IMG/VR virus record: IMGVR_UViG_3300028175_000008
Coordinates: 1 to 40,039 of that record
DNA from: a virus
Strand: one strand, 5' to 3'
Length of the DNA: 40,039 bases
Position 1 is the stretch's first letter. The number at the start of each line of letters is the position of its first letter. The notes under the pieces are model-generated. The model saw only the letters and a program-made list of their open reading frames with translations, searched no databases and was not told where the DNA came from. A program made the position numbers and the translations under genes. Shown piece after piece: positions 5,253-24,797 of this stretch.

Positions 5253-5674
5253 AACTCCTTATGCTACACAAACGATAAAAAATAAAGTGCTCATAATAAT
5301 GACAAAATGACAGATAGCTCGGACCCGGCAGAATGACAAACTGATCGGGGGGGTATAGTTTGTCGTGAACGTGAAAAGGTATGACATAACGTCAGAGGCT
5401 CTGATTGGTATGCATATCGGTGTCAATTTTTGAAGCTATAGCTCTTGATACAAATATCCTATCTCTAACGAGATAAATAATAATATACGAGTGTAGGGGA
5501 AAGGAAATAGGTATAATGATTATATGAACTCTTATGAACGACATAAAACTCCCTATATTCGGTTGAATATTATGTGCGAAGTTTTTGTTGTTTTGAGAAT
5601 TATGGATATAGTTATTATTAAGTTGAGTGTTGAATAGCAACATTCTAAGTTATAAACCAAATAAGGAGCTCATC

Positions 5675-9221: not shown

Positions 9222-9292
9222 TCACCCATGATGAAATGGTATCATGTCTGATTGTTAATCAGATCTTCCTGGTTCGAATCCAGGTGGGTGAG
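9222..9292 (+). tRNA. tRNA-Asn(GTT)
   Basis: Full cloverleaf; anticodon stem TCTGA/TCAGA; G73. Confidence 0.92.
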
Positions 9293-9297
9293 CAAAT

Positions 9298-9369
9298 ATC
9301 TCTATGGTGTAATTGGTAGCATTACGGATTCCAAATCCGTTAGTCTGAGTTCGAGTCTTAGTGGAGATG
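9298..9369 (+). tRNA. tRNA-Trp(CCA)
   Basis: Cloverleaf; ACGGA-TTCCAAA-TCCGT. Confidence 0.92.
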
Positions 9370-9377
9370 CAATATAT

Positions 9378-9448
9378 GGGCTTGTGGTGAAATGGTATCA
9401 CATGAGATTTTGAATCTCATATTATCGGTTCAACTCCGATCAGGCCTT
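9378..9448 (+). tRNA. tRNA-Gln(TTG)
   Basis: Cloverleaf; TGAGA-TTTTGAA-TCTCA. Confidence 0.88.
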
Positions 9449-9471
9449 CTAAAAGTTTTTTAAAATAACAC

Positions 9472-9500
9472 TTGACTTTATGAATTATTGTTTGTATATT
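9472..9500 (+). promoter_or_regulatory. Sigma70-type promoter
   Basis: TTGACT-N17-TATATT. Confidence 0.85.
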
Positions 9501-9531
9501 TAGGTGTTAATTGAAATGATGAGATAAGAAA

Positions 9532-9639
9532 ATGAAAGATAAGAGAACTAATAAAAATTACAGCCTAACTAAAGAGTTTAACAAAGCAATTAACTCCAGT
9601 TGGTATAAGAAAATAATGAAACGACTAAAGTTCGTTTGA
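9532..9639 (+). CDS. 35-aa microprotein, paralog of 2801-2959
   Basis: MKDKRTNKNYSLTKEFNKAINSSWYKKIMKRLKFV. Confidence 0.65.
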   Translation: MKDKRTNKNYSLTKEFNKAINSSWYKKIMKRLKFV

Positions 9640-9673
9640 TTAAAAGTTTTTTGACAATTTGTTTACCATAAAT

Positions 9674-9745
9674 GGCCCGGTCGTCTAATGGATAGGACAC
9701 TGGACTTTCACTCCAGGAACCGGAGGTCAGTACTCCGTCGGGCTA
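9674..9745 (+). tRNA. tRNA-Glu(TTC), atypical T-loop
   Basis: Cloverleaf; CTGGA-CTTTCAC-TCCAG; T-loop GTCAGTA. Confidence 0.82.
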
Positions 9746-9832
9746 CAATAAAATATTATGGAGAGTAAAATACTTGAACGAAAAACTCGTTCTCCTTATA
9801 TTTATTATAGAAGATAATATAGGAGAATTGAT

Positions 9833-10408
9833 GTGTATAAATGTAAAGTAAAAAACTGTGGATATGAAACTGAAAGTCATCCACAAATAGCTAATCATTC
9901 TAAATGGGTTCATAAGAAAGATGAGCAATATACGGTATGTTCGTATTGTGATAAAAAATACCAAAAGGCAAATTTGGGGCCACATGAAAAACGATGTATG
10001 TATAATCCAGAAAATTATACTGAATGTAAAGAATGTGATACTCACATAGAAAAACACCTTACATTCTGTAATTCAAGTTGTTCAGCGAAGTATAATAACA
10101 GAGTTGGTAAGACTGGATATAGAAGGATGATAAATGATAATAATGGTATTCATCCTAATAAGATTGGAGTAAACCCACATTATAGGGAAATGTGTTTTGA
10201 GAACTATGAACCTGAATGTGTAATATGTGGATGGGATATTTCGGTTGAAGTTCACCATGTAGATAATAATCATGATAATGATGAACCAAAAAACTTAATA
10301 CCACTGTGTTCTAATCATCACATAATGACACGAATGAATAAGCATAAAGAATTGATAAATGAAAAAATTAATGAAATAGTAAAAGAAAAATATGGGGCTA
10401 TGGTATAA
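9833..10408 (+). CDS. Zn-ribbon plus HNH endonuclease (putative homing endonuclease)
   Basis: CxxC repeats; CVICG...VEVHHVDNNH.NDEPKNLIPLCSNHH; inserted in the tRNA cluster. Confidence 0.85.
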   Translation: MYKCKVKNCGYETESHPQIANHSKWVHKKDEQYTVCSYCDKKYQKANLGPHEKRCMYNPENYTECKECDTHIEKHLTFCNSSCSAKYNNRVGKTGYRRMINDNNGIHPNKIGVNPHYREMCFENYEPECVICGWDISVEVHHVDNNHDNDEPKNLIPLCSNHHIMTRMNKHKELINEKINEIVKEKYGAMV

Positions 10409-10464
10409 AGCGATTACACCGCATTTGCACTGCGGAAATTAGGGTTGGATTCCCTATAGCTCCA
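10394..10464 (+). tRNA. tRNA-Ala(TGC)
   Basis: GGGGCTA/TAGCTCC with G3:U70; T-loop TTGGATT; overlaps the HNH stop. Confidence 0.85.
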
Positions 10465-10472
10465 CACCATAT

Positions 10473-10546
10473 GTACAGGTGGCAGAGTGGTTTAATGCGG
10501 TGGATTGCAAATCCATTATTCATCGGTTCGAATCCGATCCTGTACT
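10473..10546 (+). tRNA. tRNA-Cys(GCA)
   Basis: Cloverleaf; U73. Confidence 0.93.
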
Positions 10547-10551
10547 CAACA

Positions 10552-10622
10552 GGGGAATTAGTTCATCGGTAGAATGATTGGCTTACATCCAATAGAGAAT
10601 GGTTCGATTCCATTATTCCCTA
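10552..10622 (+). tRNA. tRNA-Val(TAC)
   Basis: ATTGG-CTTACAT-CCAAT; T-arm AATGG/CCATT. Confidence 0.9.
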
Positions 10623-10630
10623 CACAAAAT

Positions 10631-10702
10631 GCTCTCATAGCTTATCAGGTAAAGCAACTGGTTTGTAACCAGAAGAGCGGGGTTCGATTCCTCGTGAGAG
10701 CT
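10631..10702 (+). tRNA. tRNA-Thr(TGT)
   Basis: GCTCTCA/TGAGAGC; loop TTTGTAA. Confidence 0.9.
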
Positions 10703-10712
10703 CAAACAATAT

Positions 10713-10784
10713 ACTCTCGTGGTGAAACGGATATCATATTTGGCTACGAACCAAAAGTTGGGGGCTCGATTCCTCCCGAGAGTA
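10713..10784 (+). tRNA. tRNA-Arg(ACG)
   Basis: ACTCTCG/CGAGAGT; loop CTACGAA; T-loop CTCGATT. Confidence 0.88.
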
Positions 10785-10787
10785 CAG

Positions 10788-10867
10788 TATAAATAGAAAC
10801 GGTAGAAGTCCGTTATAAAGACTTTGAGTTAATTCCTCAGACGAAAGATTGACGCTCTCTATTTATA
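10788..10867 (+). ncRNA. Unassigned structured element in the tRNA cluster
   Basis: 10-bp closing stem TATAAATAGA/TCTATTTATA enclosing AACGG/CCGTT and TTTGAG/CTCAGA hairpins. Confidence 0.4.
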
Positions 10868-10876
10868 TCATTTTTT

Positions 10877-10948
10877 ACTCCCGTAGTGTAAAGGAGAACA
10901 CAGTAGTTTCCTAAACTACAAATGATGGCTCGATTCCATCCGGGAGTA
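10877..10948 (+). tRNA. tRNA-Arg(CCT)
   Basis: ACTCCCG/CGGGAGT; loop TTCCTAA; T-loop CTCGATT. Confidence 0.88.
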
Positions 10949-10953
10949 CAATT

Positions 10954-11025
10954 GGACCCATAGGTTAACTGGTAAACCAGATGGCTTTTAACCATCTGTT
11001 CCCGATTCGAGTTCGGGTGGGTCCA
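10954..11025 (+). tRNA. tRNA-Lys(TTT)
   Basis: GGACCCA/TGGGTCC; GATGG-CTTTTAA-CCATC. Confidence 0.92.
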
Positions 11026-11026
11026 C

Positions 11027-11170
11027 ATGAGTATAAAATATGAACCGACCTTTGGTGAGTATGTAGTAATACGGATGAAGGAAGAAAATATATCTTGGAA
11101 AGATTTAGATGAAGATACTATTGACTTTTTTCATACTCAATGGTTGATTGACAGAAAGAGGGTCCCGTAG
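11027..11170 (+). CDS. About 47-aa hypothetical protein between tRNAs
   Basis: ...YEPTFGEYVVIRMKEENISWKDLDEDTIDFFHTQWLIDRKRVP; stop lies inside the Leu tRNA-like gene; start less certain. Confidence 0.5.
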   Translation: MSIKYEPTFGEYVVIRMKEENISWKDLDEDTIDFFHTQWLIDRKRVP

Positions 11171-11235
11171 CCCAATTGGTAGAGGCAATAGACTTAAAAT
11201 CTATACAGGTGTTGGTTCGATTCCAACTACCCGGT
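11161..11235 (+). pseudogene. tRNA-Leu(TAA) with a non-pairing acceptor stem
   Basis: Intact D, anticodon (ATAGA-CTTAAAA-TCTAT) and T arms, but 5' GGTCCCG faces TACCCGG. Confidence 0.75.
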
Positions 11236-11304
11236 CAATAGTTATATTATATCTGTAATAGATAACTAAACATGATATTTATTACGGATAGAATGGAGTT
11301 AGAA

Positions 11305-11646
11305 ATGGAAATTCATGATAAAAGTTGGGGATATGAAAAGTGGATAGTAAATAAGAAAGAATACTGTGGGAAACTTCTATTCTTTAAAAAGGGAAAACAT
11401 TGTTCCTTTCATTACCATAAAATAAAAGATGAGGTATTTTATTTACAGTCTGGTTCGATAATAGTTAGATATTCAAATGAAGATAACTTAGAAGAATCTA
11501 AAAAAATGATTATGGAACCTGGTGATACATTTCACGTTTCTATTGGATTACGTCATCAAATGCTTGCAATAGAAGATAGTGAATTATTTGAATTTTCAAC
11601 ACAACACTTTGAAGATGATAGCTATAGGATAATTAAAGGTGATTAA
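11305..11646 (+). CDS. Cupin-domain protein (sugar isomerase-like)
   Basis: KSWGYEKW, CSFHYHKIKDE, H.M cupin metal ligands; GGAG SD before 11305. Confidence 0.85.
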   Translation: MEIHDKSWGYEKWIVNKKEYCGKLLFFKKGKHCSFHYHKIKDEVFYLQSGSIIVRYSNEDNLEESKKMIMEPGDTFHVSIGLRHQMLAIEDSELFEFSTQHFEDDSYRIIKGD

Positions 11647-12028
11647 AGTTTGGACTAATGGTTGCTTTGATGTTTTACATCGAGGACATATAGAGTTGTT
11701 TAAATATGCTAAATCACTTGGAGATATTCTTATAGTTGGTATAGATACTGATGCAAAGATTAGAACAGATAAGGGTAAAGGTAGACCAATACACACATTG
11801 GAAGATAGAATAGAAATGTTAAATTCTATAAAGTATATTGACGAAGTTTTACAGTTCAATACAACTAACGAATTACGAAATTTAGTTAGAGTTACATTAC
11901 CAGATATAATGGTAGTTGGTTCGGATTGGAAAAACGGTCAAGTGATTGGTAGAGAATTTACAAAGGAATTAAAATTTTTTGATAGGGTGGGTGATTATTC
12001 AACCACTAAAATAATGGAAGCGTGGTAG
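11639..12028 (+). CDS. Cytidylyltransferase-like protein (HldE/RfaE domain II type)
   Basis: NGCFDVLHRGH HIGH motif; GIDTD, VVGSDW, YSTT. Confidence 0.9.
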   Translation: MIKVWTNGCFDVLHRGHIELFKYAKSLGDILIVGIDTDAKIRTDKGKGRPIHTLEDRIEMLNSIKYIDEVLQFNTTNELRNLVRVTLPDIMVVGSDWKNGQVIGREFTKELKFFDRVGDYSTTKIMEAW

Positions 12029-12102
12029 AGTGGTTGATTGTACATCCCCGCTAAGGATGCTTACCTTAATAGGTAACGGAGGTTCGAATCCAACATCTTC
12101 CG
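12016..12102 (+). tRNA. tRNA-Ser(GCT), degenerate or chimeric
   Basis: Perfect anticodon stem and variable arm; T-stem GGAGG/CCAAC 3 of 5 pairs; acceptor 5 of 7; C33. Confidence 0.65.
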
Positions 12103-12110
12103 CAATATAT

Positions 12111-12196
12111 GGAGAGATCCACTGAATGGTCGGCAACTGGGTTTGAACCCCAGGGTGAATGAAAGTTTGGGGGTTCGATTCCTCATCTCTCCTCCA
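12111..12196 (+). tRNA. tRNA-Ser(TGA)
   Basis: GGAGAGA/TCTCTCC, encoded CCA, long variable region, weak D-stem. Confidence 0.78.
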
Positions 12197-12199
12197 ATT

Positions 12200-12275
12200 G
12201 CTCTCGTGGTGAAACAGGATATCACAAATCGTTTCTACCGATTTATTGAGGGTTCGAGTCCTTCCGAGAGTACCA
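12200..12275 (+). tRNA. tRNA-Arg(TCT)
   Basis: Cloverleaf with encoded CCA; AATCG-TTTCTAC-CGATT. Confidence 0.92.
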
Positions 12276-12362: not shown

Positions 12363-13100
12363 ATGAAATGTGAATATTGTAATAAAGAACATAATGGGAG
12401 TTTTGCAACTGGTAGATTTTGTAATAGGAGTTGTTCTAATGGATTTTCTACTAAAGCAAAACGAAAAGAAATAAATGAGAAAGTTAGTAAAACTTTAACA
12501 CAACATAAACAGATTGAAAGAAATTGTTTGGTATGTAATAAAAAGTTCATTACCACTGATTATAACGGTCCAACTCAAACACAACAAAAACTATGTTCAA
12601 GAGAATGTGGAAGCCAGTATTGGCCTGATAGTCGTAGGAAATCACAATCATTGGCTATGGTTAAACGAATATTAAATGGACATGCACCATCATTGAAGTC
12701 TATTAGATGTGAATATTTATATAAAGATAAATTAATAAAGTGTGATTCTAAAGTAGAATATAGTTGTTTAGATTATTTTGAAAATGAATTTAATGTGATG
12801 GATATTGATAGATGTAATTTTAGTTTACCATTTGAATTTGAGAATAGAGAACGGAGATATATTCCAGATTTTAAAATAAAAACTACTAATGGTGAAATTT
12901 ATATTGTAGAATGTAAAACTATTATTTCCAACAATGACTTGCAGAGAAAATGGAAATATTATTACGATACTATAGATATTAAACGAGAAACTTTAATAAA
13001 TTACTGTGATAAGAATGGATACACACCATTTTTTTATAATAAAGAACTCAATAGAAAATTTTACGATAACTGCAATCCCACCGGTATACCCTCGGTCTGA
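12363..13100 (+). CDS. Zn-finger plus TnsA-like PD-(D/E)XK endonuclease (putative homing endonuclease)
   Basis: CEYC, FCNRSC, CLVC, LCSREC; RRYIPDF...YIVECK. Confidence 0.8.
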   Translation: MKCEYCNKEHNGSFATGRFCNRSCSNGFSTKAKRKEINEKVSKTLTQHKQIERNCLVCNKKFITTDYNGPTQTQQKLCSRECGSQYWPDSRRKSQSLAMVKRILNGHAPSLKSIRCEYLYKDKLIKCDSKVEYSCLDYFENEFNVMDIDRCNFSLPFEFENRERRYIPDFKIKTTNGEIYIVECKTIISNNDLQRKWKYYYDTIDIKRETLINYCDKNGYTPFFYNKELNRKFYDNCNPTGIPSV

Positions 13101-13154
13101 TAAACCGTTGAAAGGTTAATTGGTTACACGTTGGTTCGACTCCAACCCGGTGGA
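13078..13154 (+). tRNA. Non-canonical tRNA-Ile(GAT)-like RNA without a D-arm at the normal position
   Basis: Perfect CCACCGG/CCGGTGG acceptor and GTTGG-TTCGACT-CCAAC T-arm; CGGT-CTGATAA-ACCG anticodon hairpin. Confidence 0.7.
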
Positions 13155-13185
13155 CAAATATGTGGGAATGTAAAGTGTGCAGAAA

Positions 13186-13211
13186 TAGTGGTTCAATTCC
13201 ACTTGGGGCTA
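13186..13211 (+). pseudogene. Orphan tRNA 3' half
   Basis: AGTGG-TTCAATT-CCACT then TGGGGCT-A-CA; no matching 5' half. Confidence 0.6.
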
Positions 13212-13230
13212 CAATATAGGAGAATGTAAA

Positions 13231-20276: not shown

Positions 20277-21440
20277 ATGACAAATACAGTTGTAAAAATA
20301 GAAATGTCGGGTAACCGATTTAACGCTTGGGATATCGATGGTAATAAACTTACCTCGGAAATCTCAACTTCCACTCGTAGAGGAGCGTTTGAAGCCGGAA
20401 TGGCATTAGAGAAACGTGAAGGTAAAGGTGGGAGAACTTATTGGTGGAAAGTTCCAATGAGTAAATTTGACGAAGCTTCTGTTCCAGTAATGGATATGAG
20501 TTCTGTTGATATTCCAAAAGAACATTCAGAAATGTTGAACTTCATTCATAGTTCTTTTAAACTTAAACCTAATGGTTTGGTGATGAAAGAATTGAAGTGG
20601 AAATATCTTGTCCGTTCCGCAGTCCGTGGAAAAAACATTTTAATGACTGGTTCGTCCGGATGTGGTAAAACTATGGCAGCTAAATCGTTGGTAAACGCTT
20701 TAGACCGTCCTGACTTTTACTTTAATCTTGGAGCGACACAGGATCCTCGTTCAACTTTGATTGGTAATACCCACTTTGATAAAAAGAAGGGAACTTACTT
20801 TTCAGAATCACATTTCGTTTCCGCGATAAAAACTCCAAACGCAGTTATTCTGTTGGATGAATTATCAAGAGCTCACCCAGACGCTTGGAATATTTTAATG
20901 ACAGTTCTTGATGAAGGTCAAAGATATCTTCGGTTGGATGAAGCCGATGGAACTGAAACAGTTTCAGTCGCAGAAGGAGTTACATTCGTCGCGACCGCTA
21001 ACATTGGTAATGAATACACTTCTACTCGTGTTATGGATAAAGCCTTAATGGACAGATTCACCATCGTAGAAATGGATGTATTGAATAATGAAGAAGAATT
21101 GGGATTACTATCCTATATGTTTCCTCATGTAGATAATGGATTACTGAAATCAGTTTCGGAAATTGCACATTCAACTCGTGTTGAATCACGAAATGAAACC
21201 GGTAGAGTTTCAAGTGGAATTTCAACCAGAACTTCTGTTGAAATGGCTGGATTACTCTATGATGGATTTGGATTAGATGAAGCAGCTGAAGTTACTGTCT
21301 ATCCACAATACTCTAATGATGGTGGTATGGAATCAGAACGAACTTACGTGAAACAGTTAATACAGAAGTTTGTTACTGATGGTAGTTCTGATGACTTGTT
21401 TAATGAAAGTGAAATCGAAAACTCAGGAGATATTAGTTAG
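20277..21440 (+). CDS. MoxR/CobS-type AAA+ ATPase
   Basis: GSSGCGKT Walker A, LLDELSR Walker B, ATANIG sensor, ALMDRF Arg finger; AAGGAG SD before 20277. Confidence 0.9.
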   Translation: MTNTVVKIEMSGNRFNAWDIDGNKLTSEISTSTRRGAFEAGMALEKREGKGGRTYWWKVPMSKFDEASVPVMDMSSVDIPKEHSEMLNFIHSSFKLKPNGLVMKELKWKYLVRSAVRGKNILMTGSSGCGKTMAAKSLVNALDRPDFYFNLGATQDPRSTLIGNTHFDKKKGTYFSESHFVSAIKTPNAVILLDELSRAHPDAWNILMTVLDEGQRYLRLDEADGTETVSVAEGVTFVATANIGNEYTSTRVMDKALMDRFTIVEMDVLNNEEELGLLSYMFPHVDNGLLKSVSEIAHSTRVESRNETGRVSSGISTRTSVEMAGLLYDGFGLDEAAEVTVYPQYSNDGGMESERTYVKQLIQKFVTDGSSDDLFNESEIENSGDIS

Positions 21441-23624: not shown

Positions 23625-24797
23625 ATGAAAAAATATAAAGACATATCAGAAATAGAAGAAGGTTGGGGTGACTTTAAAGATGCTGTAAGTGGTGGTCAGA
23701 CTCAAGCAGATTGGGTAGATCCAAACGGTAAATTGTATAAAGTTAAAGACACTCATATGGAGTTTGTAGCGAGACACCCAAAGTTATTTAAAACTGAAAT
23801 TGGAACTTTAAAACGAATCTTTGATAAACATAGTGAGGTATTTCCGAAACAAGAGAATAAAGCTCGCATAGAAATCCTAACCAAGATAGTAAAAAGAGGT
23901 TGGATACGAACCCGATACAGACCAAGAGAAGGTGCGTGGACATTGGAAACTTACAAGTGGGGAACTCGTGAAATTAAAGCAGCTCGTAAGTGGGCAAAGG
24001 TAAAGTCCGGTGGTAATACCCAATTTAGAATAAACTTTGTATCAACATCTAAACAAAAATTGATAGGACATTCATTTAGTATAGATTTGATAAAGAGTAA
24101 AGGTAATGATGTATTTGAAGCATGGATGAAAGAAATAATGGAAATCACAGAAAACGTTAATTTACAAGAAAGTTCTTTAAGTAGAATTTGGAAGCACGCC
24201 CAACTTCACCAAACTGGAACCATAACTGCATTTAGATATGCTCGTGATTGTGGTGAAGGTACGGTGTATACGAAAGGTGAAAATAAAGCAAGAAATAAAA
24301 AGTTGGAATCAAAATTATTAAGTAAGGGGTATGGTATTACTAAAATACAGGGAATTTATATTGAGAATTATAAATCTAATAATGAGATTGAAGTTAAAGA
24401 AGAATCATTTTTTGTGGTGGATTTAAAAGATAATAAAAAACTATTATTGAATTTAAAAAAATTAGGTAGAGAATTTGATCAAGATAGTATTTGCTTTGGA
24501 TTACATGGTGGCAAAAGATATACTGTATTTGGAACTAATGATTGTCCAAATGCATATCCTGGAAAAGGTAAAAATATAAAACTAGGAGATGCTATTTTTG
24601 GAAACAGTGGTAAATTTATGTCGAAAGTAAACGGTAGACCGTTTATATTTAATGGATCAGTTAAAACTAAATTACCAGAAATGATAACCTATGAATCATT
24701 ATCTATACAGTCAAAAGAAGTAGTAGATAAAATATCAAATACTACTTGGGAAAGTTTTTATGTATCCAATAAGGATATTTTAGAAAATGAAAAATAA
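23625..24797 (+). CDS. Two-domain hypothetical phage protein
   Basis: 390-aa ORF; C-terminal ESSLSRIW...ITAFR...EESFFV...FDQDSI. Confidence 0.8.
   Translation: MKKYKDISEIEEGWGDFKDAVSGGQTQADWVDPNGKLYKVKDTHMEFVARHPKLFKTEIGTLKRIFDKHSEVFPKQENKARIEILTKIVKRGWIRTRYRPREGAWTLETYKWGTREIKAARKWAKVKSGGNTQFRINFVSTSKQKLIGHSFSIDLIKSKGNDVFEAWMKEIMEITENVNLQESSLSRIWKHAQLHQTGTITAFRYARDCGEGTVYTKGENKARNKKLESKLLSKGYGITKIQGIYIENYKSNNEIEVKEESFFVVDLKDNKKLLLNLKKLGREFDQDSICFGLHGGKRYTVFGTNDCPNAYPGKGKNIKLGDAIFGNSGKFMSKVNGRPFIFNGSVKTKLPEMITYESLSIQSKEVVDKISNTTWESFYVSNKDILENEK

What the first reader, a model, noticed from the sequence alone, without database searches (positions are those of the whole stretch)
13078..13154. 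tRNA-Ile(GAT)-like RNA with a rearranged cloverleaf
Seen: perfect 7-bp acceptor and canonical T-arm, but after position 9 the chain goes straight into an extended anticodon arm (TACCCT/AGGTTA, 5 of 6 pairs; TTGAA bulge; CGGT-CTGATAA-ACCG). A D-loop-like ATTGGTTACAC lies 3' of the anticodon arm, where the variable loop should be. No canonical Ile tRNA is present in this window. Inference: either a functional tRNA with transposed D-loop elements that rebuild the elbow, or a tRNA mimic or decoy against anticodon nucleases or uncharged-tRNA sensors.
Basis: partly seen in the sequence, partly recalled or inferred. Interest (0 to 1): 0.7.

Follow-up and report, generated by a model that had tools for sequence, protein, structure and literature searches.

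The report
Phage isoleucine tRNA with rewired D-arm
This 77-base phage gene is most likely a working isoleucine tRNA that keeps every standard tRNA part but joins the D-arm pieces in a different order, a layout shared by hundreds of phage tRNAs, missed by tRNA finders, and absent from every paper I could search.

Summary
Window 13078-13154 (+) has a perfect 7-bp acceptor stem, a canonical T arm, a GAU anticodon hairpin, and a D-loop-like stretch lying 3' of the anticodon arm.

It is neither chance nor a pseudogene. Pattern scans of viral contigs found 326 copies of this layout (241 distinct sequences). RNAalifold, run on its own, predicts the same fold, and 19 of 20 pairs covary. These include the relocated D-stem and the 15-48 tertiary pair.

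Order of parts: 1-9, then 22-43 (D-stem 3' strand plus anticodon arm), a conserved NGAAA bulge, then 10-21 (D-stem 5' strand plus D-loop), then the T arm.

All anticodons are Ile (GAU, UAU, CAU) or Arg. Identity bases follow the anticodon: A73 and U20 with Ile, A20 with Arg. Rewired and ordinary copies of the same isoacceptor tend to exclude each other in phage tRNA clusters (p about 1e-7).

Best reading: a working tRNA-Ile(GAU), the only Ile tRNA in this window. Expression, charging and ribosome use were not shown.

ARAGORN misses every copy and public records leave them blank or misname them. Earlier agents of this scan found the same family on other genomes. My searches found no paper describing it.

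The parts
13078..13084 (+). Acceptor stem, 5' strand (positions 1-7), CCACCGG
   Evidence: Pairs 7 of 7 with 13147-13153. All 7 pairs covary in 75 relatives.
13085..13086 (+). U8 A9 connector
   Evidence: TA in all 75 aligned Ile members. My collecting filter also required it, so this is not independent evidence.
13087..13090 (+). D-stem 3' strand placed first (equivalent of 22-25): U22 then ACC
   Evidence: ACC pairs with GGT at 13114-16. The three pairs covary: A-U/C-G/U-A/G-C, C-G/U-A/A-U, and C-G mostly. U22 faces U13.
13091..13091 (+). C26 hinge base
   Evidence: C in all 190 distinct Ile and Arg members tabulated. Most scan patterns fixed this base; the first scans did not.
13092..13108 (+). 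Anticodon arm: U27-U43 mismatch, 4 Watson-Crick pairs, loop CUGAUAA; anticodon GAU at 13099-13101
   Evidence: All four pairs covary. U33 and A37 are kept. Anticodons across the family are only Ile or Arg.
13109..13113 (+). Conserved 5-nt bulge UGAAA (N-G-A-A-A) joining position 43 to position 10
   Evidence: U/A/C/G followed by GAAA in all members tabulated. Pattern scans fixed GAAA, but divergent subtypes found with the model carry other bulges.
13114..13117 (+). D-stem 5' strand placed second (equivalent of 10-13): GGU then U13
   Evidence: Pairs with 13088-13090. G10-C25 is kept in 88 of 91 Ile members.
13118..13126 (+). D-loop AAUUGGUUA (A14, A15, G18 G19, U20, A21)
   Evidence: A14 and G18G19 are kept in all members (A14 and a GG were required by my filter). 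The base after G19 is U in nearly all Ile members and A in all 99 distinct Arg members.
13127..13129 (+). Linker CA plus position 48 (C here)
   Evidence: The last base covaries with position 15 as a Levitt pair: A-U 37, G-C 24, not paired 11 of 75. The window's own pair is A-C, one of the unpaired minority.
13130..13146 (+). T arm GUUGG-UUCGACU-CCAAC
   Evidence: Canonical T loop. Four of five pairs covary; G53-C61 is invariant.
13147..13154 (+). Acceptor stem 3' strand CCGGUGG and discriminator A73; C74 follows at 13155 and no CCA is encoded
   Evidence: A73 in 91 of 91 distinct Ile members; A73-C74 in 90 of 91. The window's ordinary tRNAs mostly encode C74 without the full CCA as well.

Best explanation
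13078-13154 encodes a working elongator tRNA-Ile(GAU) with a permuted core.

Shown: it is a conserved RNA gene of a large phage family with four covarying helices.
- Acceptor stem, 7 bp.
- T stem, 5 bp.
- Anticodon stem, 4 bp plus a U-U.
- A 3-bp helix plus a U-U, formed by the strand right after A9 and the strand right before the D-loop.

That last helix is the D-stem with its strands in swapped order. The segment 10-21 (D-stem 5' strand plus D-loop) sits after the anticodon arm instead of before it.

Inferred: the D-stem still stacks on the anticodon stem, now as one continuous hairpin with a conserved NGAAA bulge. U8-A14, 15-48, G18-U55 and G19-C56 still build the elbow, so the molecule keeps the L shape.

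Inferred: it is cut out of the tRNA-cluster transcript by RNase P and 3' trimming, completed by a CCA-adding enzyme (only C74 is encoded), charged by host IleRS through G34 A35 U36, A37, A38, A73, C4-G69, U12-A23 and U20, and reads AUU and AUC. It would be the only Ile tRNA in this stretch of the phage.

Why phages keep this wiring for Ile and Arg is unknown. The anticodons found are linked by single-base steps (CAU-UAU-GAU, UAU-UCU, UCU-CCU/UCG, UCG-ACG/CCG/GCG), and the synthetases involved read mainly the anticodon. That fits one origin followed by identity switches.
For: **Conservation**
- The same element sits in 77 Streptomyces phages and in a 462-kb uncultured phage.
- Pattern scans of viral contigs gave 326 copies, 241 distinct.

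**Fold**
- RNAalifold on 75 Ile members predicts this fold unprompted; 18 of 19 pairs show compensatory changes.
- For my stated structure, 97.7% of cells pair and 19 of 20 pairs change on both sides. The covariation score is 0.85, against 0.21 when shuffled and at most 0.14 when slid.
- The 15-48 tertiary pair covaries.

**Identity**
- Anticodons are only GAT, TAT and CAT, or ACG, CCT, TCT, TCG, CCG and GCG. A scan for NAV anticodons (Leu, Val, Phe) gave one chance hit.
- A73 occurs in 91 of 91 Ile members, with U after G19. A20 occurs in 99 of 99 Arg members, with G or A at 73. These match the bacterial determinants listed in PMC9976931.

**Substitution**
- An ordinary tRNA-Ile(GAT) is present in 16 of 108 loci that hold the rewired GAT, against 35 of 68 that do not (p = 3.8e-7).
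- An ordinary Arg(ACG) is present in 0 of 46 loci with the rewired ACG, against 44 of 130 (p = 2e-7).
- Control anticodons are equally frequent in both sets.
- In the part of Mildred21 that holds all but one of its tRNA matches, the only ACG and TCG Arg tRNAs seen are rewired ones.

**Setting**
- The element lies on the same strand as the window's tRNA genes and next to that cluster, at GC 0.51 in a genome of GC 0.32. It shares their 'C74 only' 3' style.
Against: - Nothing here shows the RNA is made, trimmed, given CCA, charged or used by a ribosome.
- Loci are fragments of at most 15 kb, so 'no ordinary copy' means none nearby, not none in the genome.
- Mildred21 carries ordinary Ile(gat) and Ile(tat) as well as the rewired Ile(GAT), so the rewired form is not always the sole decoder.
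- The window copy has an A15-C48 mismatch and lacks E. coli's C29-G41.
- Folding the single sequence does not favour this structure (z = -1.18, a different minimum-energy fold).
- The L shape is argued from canonical tertiary contacts, not modelled.
- My stem filter and patterns fixed some bases, so the invariance of TA, C26, GAAA and A14 is partly built in.
- A later check of a sister finding in this scan put the 'working tRNA' reading at about 30 in 100.
Confidence: 0.68

Rival explanations
1. A tRNA look-alike that is not used for decoding. It could be a decoy for tRNA-cleaving defence nucleases or toxins, a sponge or regulator for IleRS/ArgRS or uncharged-tRNA sensors, or a partner of phage RNA-repair proteins.
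For: - The fold departs from a shape that the ribosome, EF-Tu and modification enzymes normally demand.
- Some phages carry it beside an ordinary tRNA-Ile(GAU).
- Cluster BE Streptomyces phages also encode a Ro-like protein, an RNA ligase, a polynucleotide kinase and a CCA-adding enzyme.
- There are no expression or charging data.
Against: - A decoy does not need nine anticodons covering the Ile and Arg boxes.
- It does not need synthetase determinants far from the anticodon (A73, U20/A20) that switch with the anticodon.
- It does not explain why the rewired form and the ordinary isoacceptor avoid each other while control tRNAs do not.
- The 3' end style matches neighbouring real tRNAs.
Confidence: 0.2
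2. A precursor that is cut and re-ligated into an ordinary cloverleaf, like the permuted tRNA genes of Cyanidioschyzon merolae.
For: Some carriers encode an RNA ligase and a polynucleotide kinase. Permuted tRNA genes are known in a red alga (PMC3728597, abstract seen).
Against: - The 5' and 3' acceptor strands are already at the two ends.
- Restoring the canonical order would need an internal 12-nt segment to be excised and reinserted.
- The base just 5' of the T stem covaries with position 15, and the strands flanking the anticodon arm covary in the encoded order.
- No conserved bulge-helix-bulge or other splice motif was seen.
Confidence: 0.03
3. A decayed tRNA pseudogene or a chance resemblance.
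For: ARAGORN does not call it. Rfam scores it 30.3 bits against a cut-off of 29.
Against: There are hundreds of conserved copies with compensatory changes in every helix, in unrelated phages of GC 0.3 to 0.6.
Confidence: 0.01

Closest known systems
Canonical bacterial and phage elongator tRNA-Ile(GAU) (Rfam RF00005), e.g. E. coli tRNA-Ile1
   Same: - 7-bp acceptor stem, A73, a T arm with a TTCRA loop, a 7-nt anticodon loop with U33 and A37.
- GAU anticodon, U8, A14, G18G19, the 15-48 pair and G10-C25.
- E. coli IleRS determinants C4-G69, U12-A23, U20 and A38.
   Different: - There is no D hairpin. The D-stem 3' strand precedes the anticodon arm and the 5' strand plus D-loop follow it.
- A conserved NGAAA bulge joins 43 to 10.
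- Position 21 joins the T stem through CA plus one base.
- 27-43 is U-U.
- It scores 30 bits against 45-74 for ordinary tRNAs.
Rewired phage tRNA-Arg and CAU forms of the same layout
   Same: They share the order of parts, the junction bases (C26, U27-U43, NGAAA, U13, A14) and the setting in phage tRNA clusters. The Ile-built model scores the Arg forms at about 60-85 bits.
   Different: They differ in anticodon, in A20 instead of U20, and in G or A at 73. CCA is encoded in about 60% of the Arg forms.
D-armless mitochondrial tRNAs (e.g. animal mt-tRNA-Ser(AGY), nematode armless tRNAs; review PMC7609411)
   Same: There is no hairpin between position 9 and the anticodon arm. Standard finders struggle with both.
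   Different: Those have lost the D-stem and D-loop and fold loosely. This one keeps both, with G18G19 and a covarying D-stem, only in another order, and it is used with bacterial-type machinery.
Permuted tRNA genes of Cyanidioschyzon merolae (PMC3728597)
   Same: Parts of a tRNA are encoded out of the usual order.
   Different: There the whole 3' half lies upstream of the 5' half, and processing restores a normal cloverleaf. Here the ends are normal and only the internal segment 10-21 has moved, with no sign of re-joining.
tRNA-like modules of YrlA (bacterial Y RNA) and of tmRNA
   Same: A T arm and an acceptor-like stem with a reduced or odd D region. Some are carried by phages; Mildred21 has a Ro-like gene and a tmRNA.
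   Different: There is no Ro-binding stem and no mRNA-like domain. A true anticodon arm with sense anticodons is present. No Rfam family other than tRNA matches.

Membership tests
tRNA (canonical cloverleaf, Rfam RF00005) | 7-bp acceptor stem with a discriminator base | tested here: met
   7 of 7 pairs in the window. All 7 covary in relatives.
tRNA (canonical cloverleaf, Rfam RF00005) | T arm: 5 bp plus a 7-nt loop T54-U55-C56-R57-A58 | tested here: met
   GTTGG-TTCGACT-CCAAC. The stem covaries.
tRNA (canonical cloverleaf, Rfam RF00005) | Anticodon arm with a 7-nt loop, U33 and a purine at 37 | tested here: met
   Loop CUGAUAA. The stem is 4 Watson-Crick pairs plus a conserved U27-U43.
tRNA (canonical cloverleaf, Rfam RF00005) | D hairpin (10-13 paired with 22-25, closing the D-loop) between position 9 and the anticodon arm | tested here: not met
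   Rfam deletes the D arm and inserts 18 nt in the variable region. Covariation places the two D-stem strands on either side of the anticodon arm.
tRNA (canonical cloverleaf, Rfam RF00005) | Score at or above the Rfam gathering cut-off (29 bits) | tested here: inconclusive
   Missed with default filters on the whole window. It reaches 30.3 bits with lax filters. About half of 20 relatives reach 29-34 bits.
tRNA (canonical cloverleaf, Rfam RF00005) | Core tertiary contacts: U8-A14, R15-Y48, G18G19 with the T loop | tested here: inconclusive
   All the bases are present. The 15-48 pair covaries across the family, but the window copy has A15-C48. The contacts themselves cannot be tested without a structure.
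Bacterial tRNA-Ile identity (IleRS substrate) | A73; G34 A35 U36; A37, A38; C4-G69; U12-A23; U20 (PMC9976931 Table 1) | tested here: met
   All are present in the window copy by sequence. C29-G41 and G16 are not. A73 is in 91 of 91 Ile members.
Bacterial tRNA-Ile identity (IleRS substrate) | Aminoacylation with isoleucine | not testable with these tools
   No charging data.
Rewired-core phage tRNA class (Ile/Arg) | Order 1-9 / 22-43 / bulge / 10-21 / T arm, with a covarying split D-stem | tested here: met
   Family model R1 scores it 95.3 bits, E = 3e-25. It is the first row of alignment A2.
D-armless mitochondrial-type tRNA | Loss of the D-stem and of the G18G19 D-loop | tested here: not met
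   A D-stem equivalent and an AAUUGGUUA loop are present and conserved.
Permuted tRNA gene (C. merolae type) | 3' half encoded upstream of the 5' half | tested here: not met
   The acceptor 5' and 3' strands lie at the two ends of the gene.

The most novel reading that the evidence does not exclude
The rewired core is an adaptation, not a frozen accident. On this reading phages keep Ile and Arg decoders in a fold that ribosomes and synthetases accept, but that a host tRNA-targeting defence, or the phage's own weapon against host tRNAs, cannot recognise. That would make it a natural, translation-competent, non-cloverleaf tRNA that is orthogonal to part of the cell's tRNA-handling machinery.
Probability: 0.15. 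Interest if true: 0.92.

Novelty: new variant of a known kind. Interest (0 to 1): 0.8.

Why it matters
[quoted passage not shown] A class of tRNAs used in bacterial cells during infection, with the D-arm strands in swapped order, would be a natural exception. It would show that tRNA function depends on the three-dimensional parts rather than on how the chain threads through them.
- **Annotation.** These genes are missed or misnamed, so phage tRNA sets and codon-coverage analyses are wrong. In Mildred21 one is labelled tRNA-Phe and two are blank. EGole labels its copy tRNA-Leu.
- **Engineering.** A naturally divergent scaffold that IleRS and ArgRS still accept would interest people designing orthogonal tRNAs.
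- **Testability.** The cluster BE Streptomyces phages are cultured, so the question is directly testable.

Tried and rejected
- **Near-identity search.** Megablast of 2 kb around the site against phage records found no match. The phage is novel: its PhoH protein is at most 44% identical to any record.
- **Single-sequence folding.** It gives another minimum-energy fold with z = -1.18. That fold's CUGAU/AUUGG helix is broken in relatives, so I rejected it.
Rejected by covariation.
- **Hammerhead-like reading of CUGAUAA...GAAA.** Rejected by eye: G8 is wrong and there is no stem II.
- **Y RNA or tmRNA module.** No Rfam match.
- **My error.** Its 14 hits are chance and it says nothing about bacteria.
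- **Replacement for that scan.** The corrected pattern was run on 1,203 sampled genomes of three phyla. It gave one hit, which lacks D-stem pairing. So the family was 'not found in those searched', no more than that.
- **Literature.** Five searches, including the motif as a text string, found no description.
- **No whole genome is held for this window**.

Full report
**What is there**

The stretch 13078-13154 (+) reads: acceptor CCACCGG, UA, UACC, C, UCGGU-CUGAUAA-ACCGU, UGAAA, GGU-U, AAUUGGUUA, CAC, GUUGG-UUCGACU-CCAAC, CCGGUGG, A.

ARAGORN lists 13 tRNAs at 9222-12275 but nothing here and no Ile tRNA. Rfam with default filters misses the site. With lax filters the generic tRNA model reaches 30.3 bits against a cut-off of 29, by deleting the D arm and inserting 18 nt in the variable region. 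The element has GC 0.51 in a window of GC 0.30-0.34.

**It is conserved**

A sensitive blastn found the same element in 77 Streptomyces phages (Stanwilliamsviridae, about 131 kb) and in a 462-kb uncultured phage. It is nearly always unannotated there.

Pattern scans of IMG/VR contigs, with the stems left free, gave over 100 distinct Ile-type sequences. With the anticodon freed, the total rose to 326 copies, 241 distinct, all passing a helix filter. The filter required at least 6 of 7 acceptor pairs, at least 4 of 5 T-stem pairs, 4 of 4 anticodon-stem pairs and 3 of 3 D-stem pairs.

**The fold**

On 75 Ile members (alignment A2, window copy first), RNAalifold unprompted returns four helices: acceptor, a 3-bp helix between columns 11-13 and 37-39, the anticodon stem, and the T stem. 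Eighteen of 19 pairs show compensatory changes.

Counting my stated structure, which adds the 15-48 pair:
- 97.7% of cells pair.
- 19 of 20 pairs change on both sides.
- The covariation score is 0.85, against 0.21 when shuffled and at most 0.14 when the partners are slid.

The 3-bp helix takes forms such as ACC/GGT, CTC/GAG, CAC/GTG, TCC/GGA, CGC/GCG and CCA/TGG.

The strand after A9 leads straight into C26 and the anticodon stem, as 22-25 does in a normal tRNA. The strand after the bulge leads straight into A14-R15-..-G18-G19-..-A21, as 10-13 does. So the helix is the D-stem with its strands in swapped order, and G10-C25 is kept in 88 of 91 Ile members.

The base just 5' of the T stem covaries with position 15 (A-U 37, G-C 24 of 75), which makes it the Levitt pair. 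The order of parts is therefore 1-9, 22-43, NGAAA, 10-21, CA+48, 49-73.

That the D-stem still stacks on the anticodon stem and that the elbow still forms is inference from canonical tRNA geometry. It was not modelled.

**What it does**

Four lines of evidence point to a decoding tRNA.

- **Anticodons.** They are only Ile-type (GAT 139, TAT 11, CAT 64 copies) or Arg (ACG 60, CCT 20, TCT 18, TCG 11, CCG 2, GCG 1). A scan for NAV anticodons gave one chance hit. Divergent subtypes with other junction sequences, found with model R1, are again Ile or Arg.
- **Synthetase determinants.** Determinants outside the anticodon follow it. Ile forms have A73 in 91 of 91 and mostly U after G19. Arg forms have A20 in 99 of 99 and G or A at 73. 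These are the bacterial identity sets in PMC9976931. The window copy also has C4-G69, U12-A23, A37 and A38.
- **Mutual exclusion.** Among loci with at least 5 ARAGORN tRNAs, an ordinary Ile(GAT) is present in 16 of 108 loci with a rewired GAT, against 35 of 68 without (Fisher p = 3.8e-7). An ordinary Arg(ACG) is present in 0 of 46 loci with a rewired ACG, against 44 of 130 (p = 2e-7). Asn, Cys, Asp, Phe, His and the other control anticodons are equally common in both sets.
- **The CAU form.** Loci with a rewired CAT are poor in ordinary Ile(TAT) (3 of 36 against 48 of 176) but not in ordinary CAT tRNAs. This hints that the CAU form is an AUA-reading Ile2 type.

In Mildred21, within the part of the genome that holds all but one of its tRNA matches, the only ACG and TCG Arg tRNAs seen are rewired.

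The window copy encodes C74 but not CCA, like its ordinary neighbours.

**Limits**

- No expression, processing, charging or ribosome data exist here.
- Loci are fragments.
- Mildred21 also has ordinary Ile(gat) and Ile(tat).
- The window copy has an A15-C48 mismatch.
- Some 'invariant' bases were fixed by my patterns and filter.

I put the fold and conservation at about 0.95 and the 'working tRNA-Ile' reading at about 0.68.

**Detection and annotation**

- ARAGORN overlaps 0 of 326 copies.
- Rfam reaches 29-34 bits for about half of 20 tested, against 45-74 for ordinary tRNAs.
- Public records leave the genes blank, or call them tRNA-Phe(gaa) (Mildred21 91367-91442, really Arg TCG), tRNA-Leu (EGole) or tRNA-OTHER (Rhodococcus phage Trina).
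- The CAU form occurs in crAss-like phages.

**Distribution**

My genome-contig scan was invalid because of a typed spacing error. The corrected pattern found no credible member in 1,203 sampled prokaryote genomes.

**Novelty**

Rfam has no separate family. Five literature searches found no description. A review of non-canonical tRNAs does not mention phages at all, and a 2024 paper states that all known bacterial tRNAs are cloverleaves.

Earlier agents of this scan reported the same family on other genomes, along with a related pseudoknotted Tyr class. I read those notes only after reaching my own reading. They are not independent evidence.

Noticed in passing
window 9674-9745 (+): A tRNA with a UUC (Glu) anticodon loop (CTTTCAC) and an odd T loop (GTCAGTA instead of TTCRANY). 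Rfam scores it 45.6 bits; ARAGORN misses it.
   Followed up: partly
window 11168-11227 (+): A partial tRNA-like stretch (Rfam 38.7 bits, model positions 8-63 only) with a UAA anticodon and a short variable loop. The flanks do not form an acceptor stem. It may be a pseudo-tRNA.
   Followed up: partly
window 13187-13215 (+): A T-arm-like hairpin AGTGG-TTCAATT-CCACT followed by TGGGGCT-A-CAA, like the 3' third of a tRNA. I saw no matching 5' strand. No Rfam or R1 hit.
   Followed up: partly
window 12363-13100 (+): A 245-aa ORF whose last 23 bases overlap the 5' part of the tRNA; its stop codon is the TGA in the anticodon loop. It has only weak matches to TnsA-like/PD-(D/E)xK nucleases. It may be a homing endonuclease, like the HNH-like ORF at 9833-10408 inside the tRNA cluster.
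   Followed up: partly
L148 (Streptomyces phage Mildred21, MF155946.1) 20868-20943 and 24358-24434: A rewired tRNA-Arg(TCG) is annotated as tRNA-Phe(gaa), and a rewired tRNA-Arg(ACG) is unannotated. The only ordinary Arg tRNA annotated in this stretch is CCT. The same phage encodes a Ro-like protein, an RNA ligase, a polynucleotide kinase, a CCA-adding enzyme and a tmRNA.
   Followed up: partly
L276-L341 (viral contigs); phage records PQ006092.1, NC_055901.1 and a Kehishuvirus record: A CAU-anticodon subfamily of the same layout (51 distinct sequences, all with A73), including in crAss-like phages. Its loci are poor in ordinary tRNA-Ile(UAU), which suggests a lysidine-type Ile2 rather than Met.
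   Followed up: partly
L012:5182-5262 and 5269-5347, L050:6204-6282, L173:14212-14288, L179:11437-11515, L066:9943-10019 and 10029-10104, L207:13043-13117: Divergent subtypes with the same strand order but other bulge and linker sequences (R1 scores 32-53 bits). All carry Ile or Arg anticodons.
   Followed up: no
family-wide: The Ile subfamily mostly starts with C1-G72 or U1-A72 rather than G1-C72. The 11-24 pair is purine-pyrimidine, the reverse of usual elongator tRNAs. Neither is explained.
   Followed up: no
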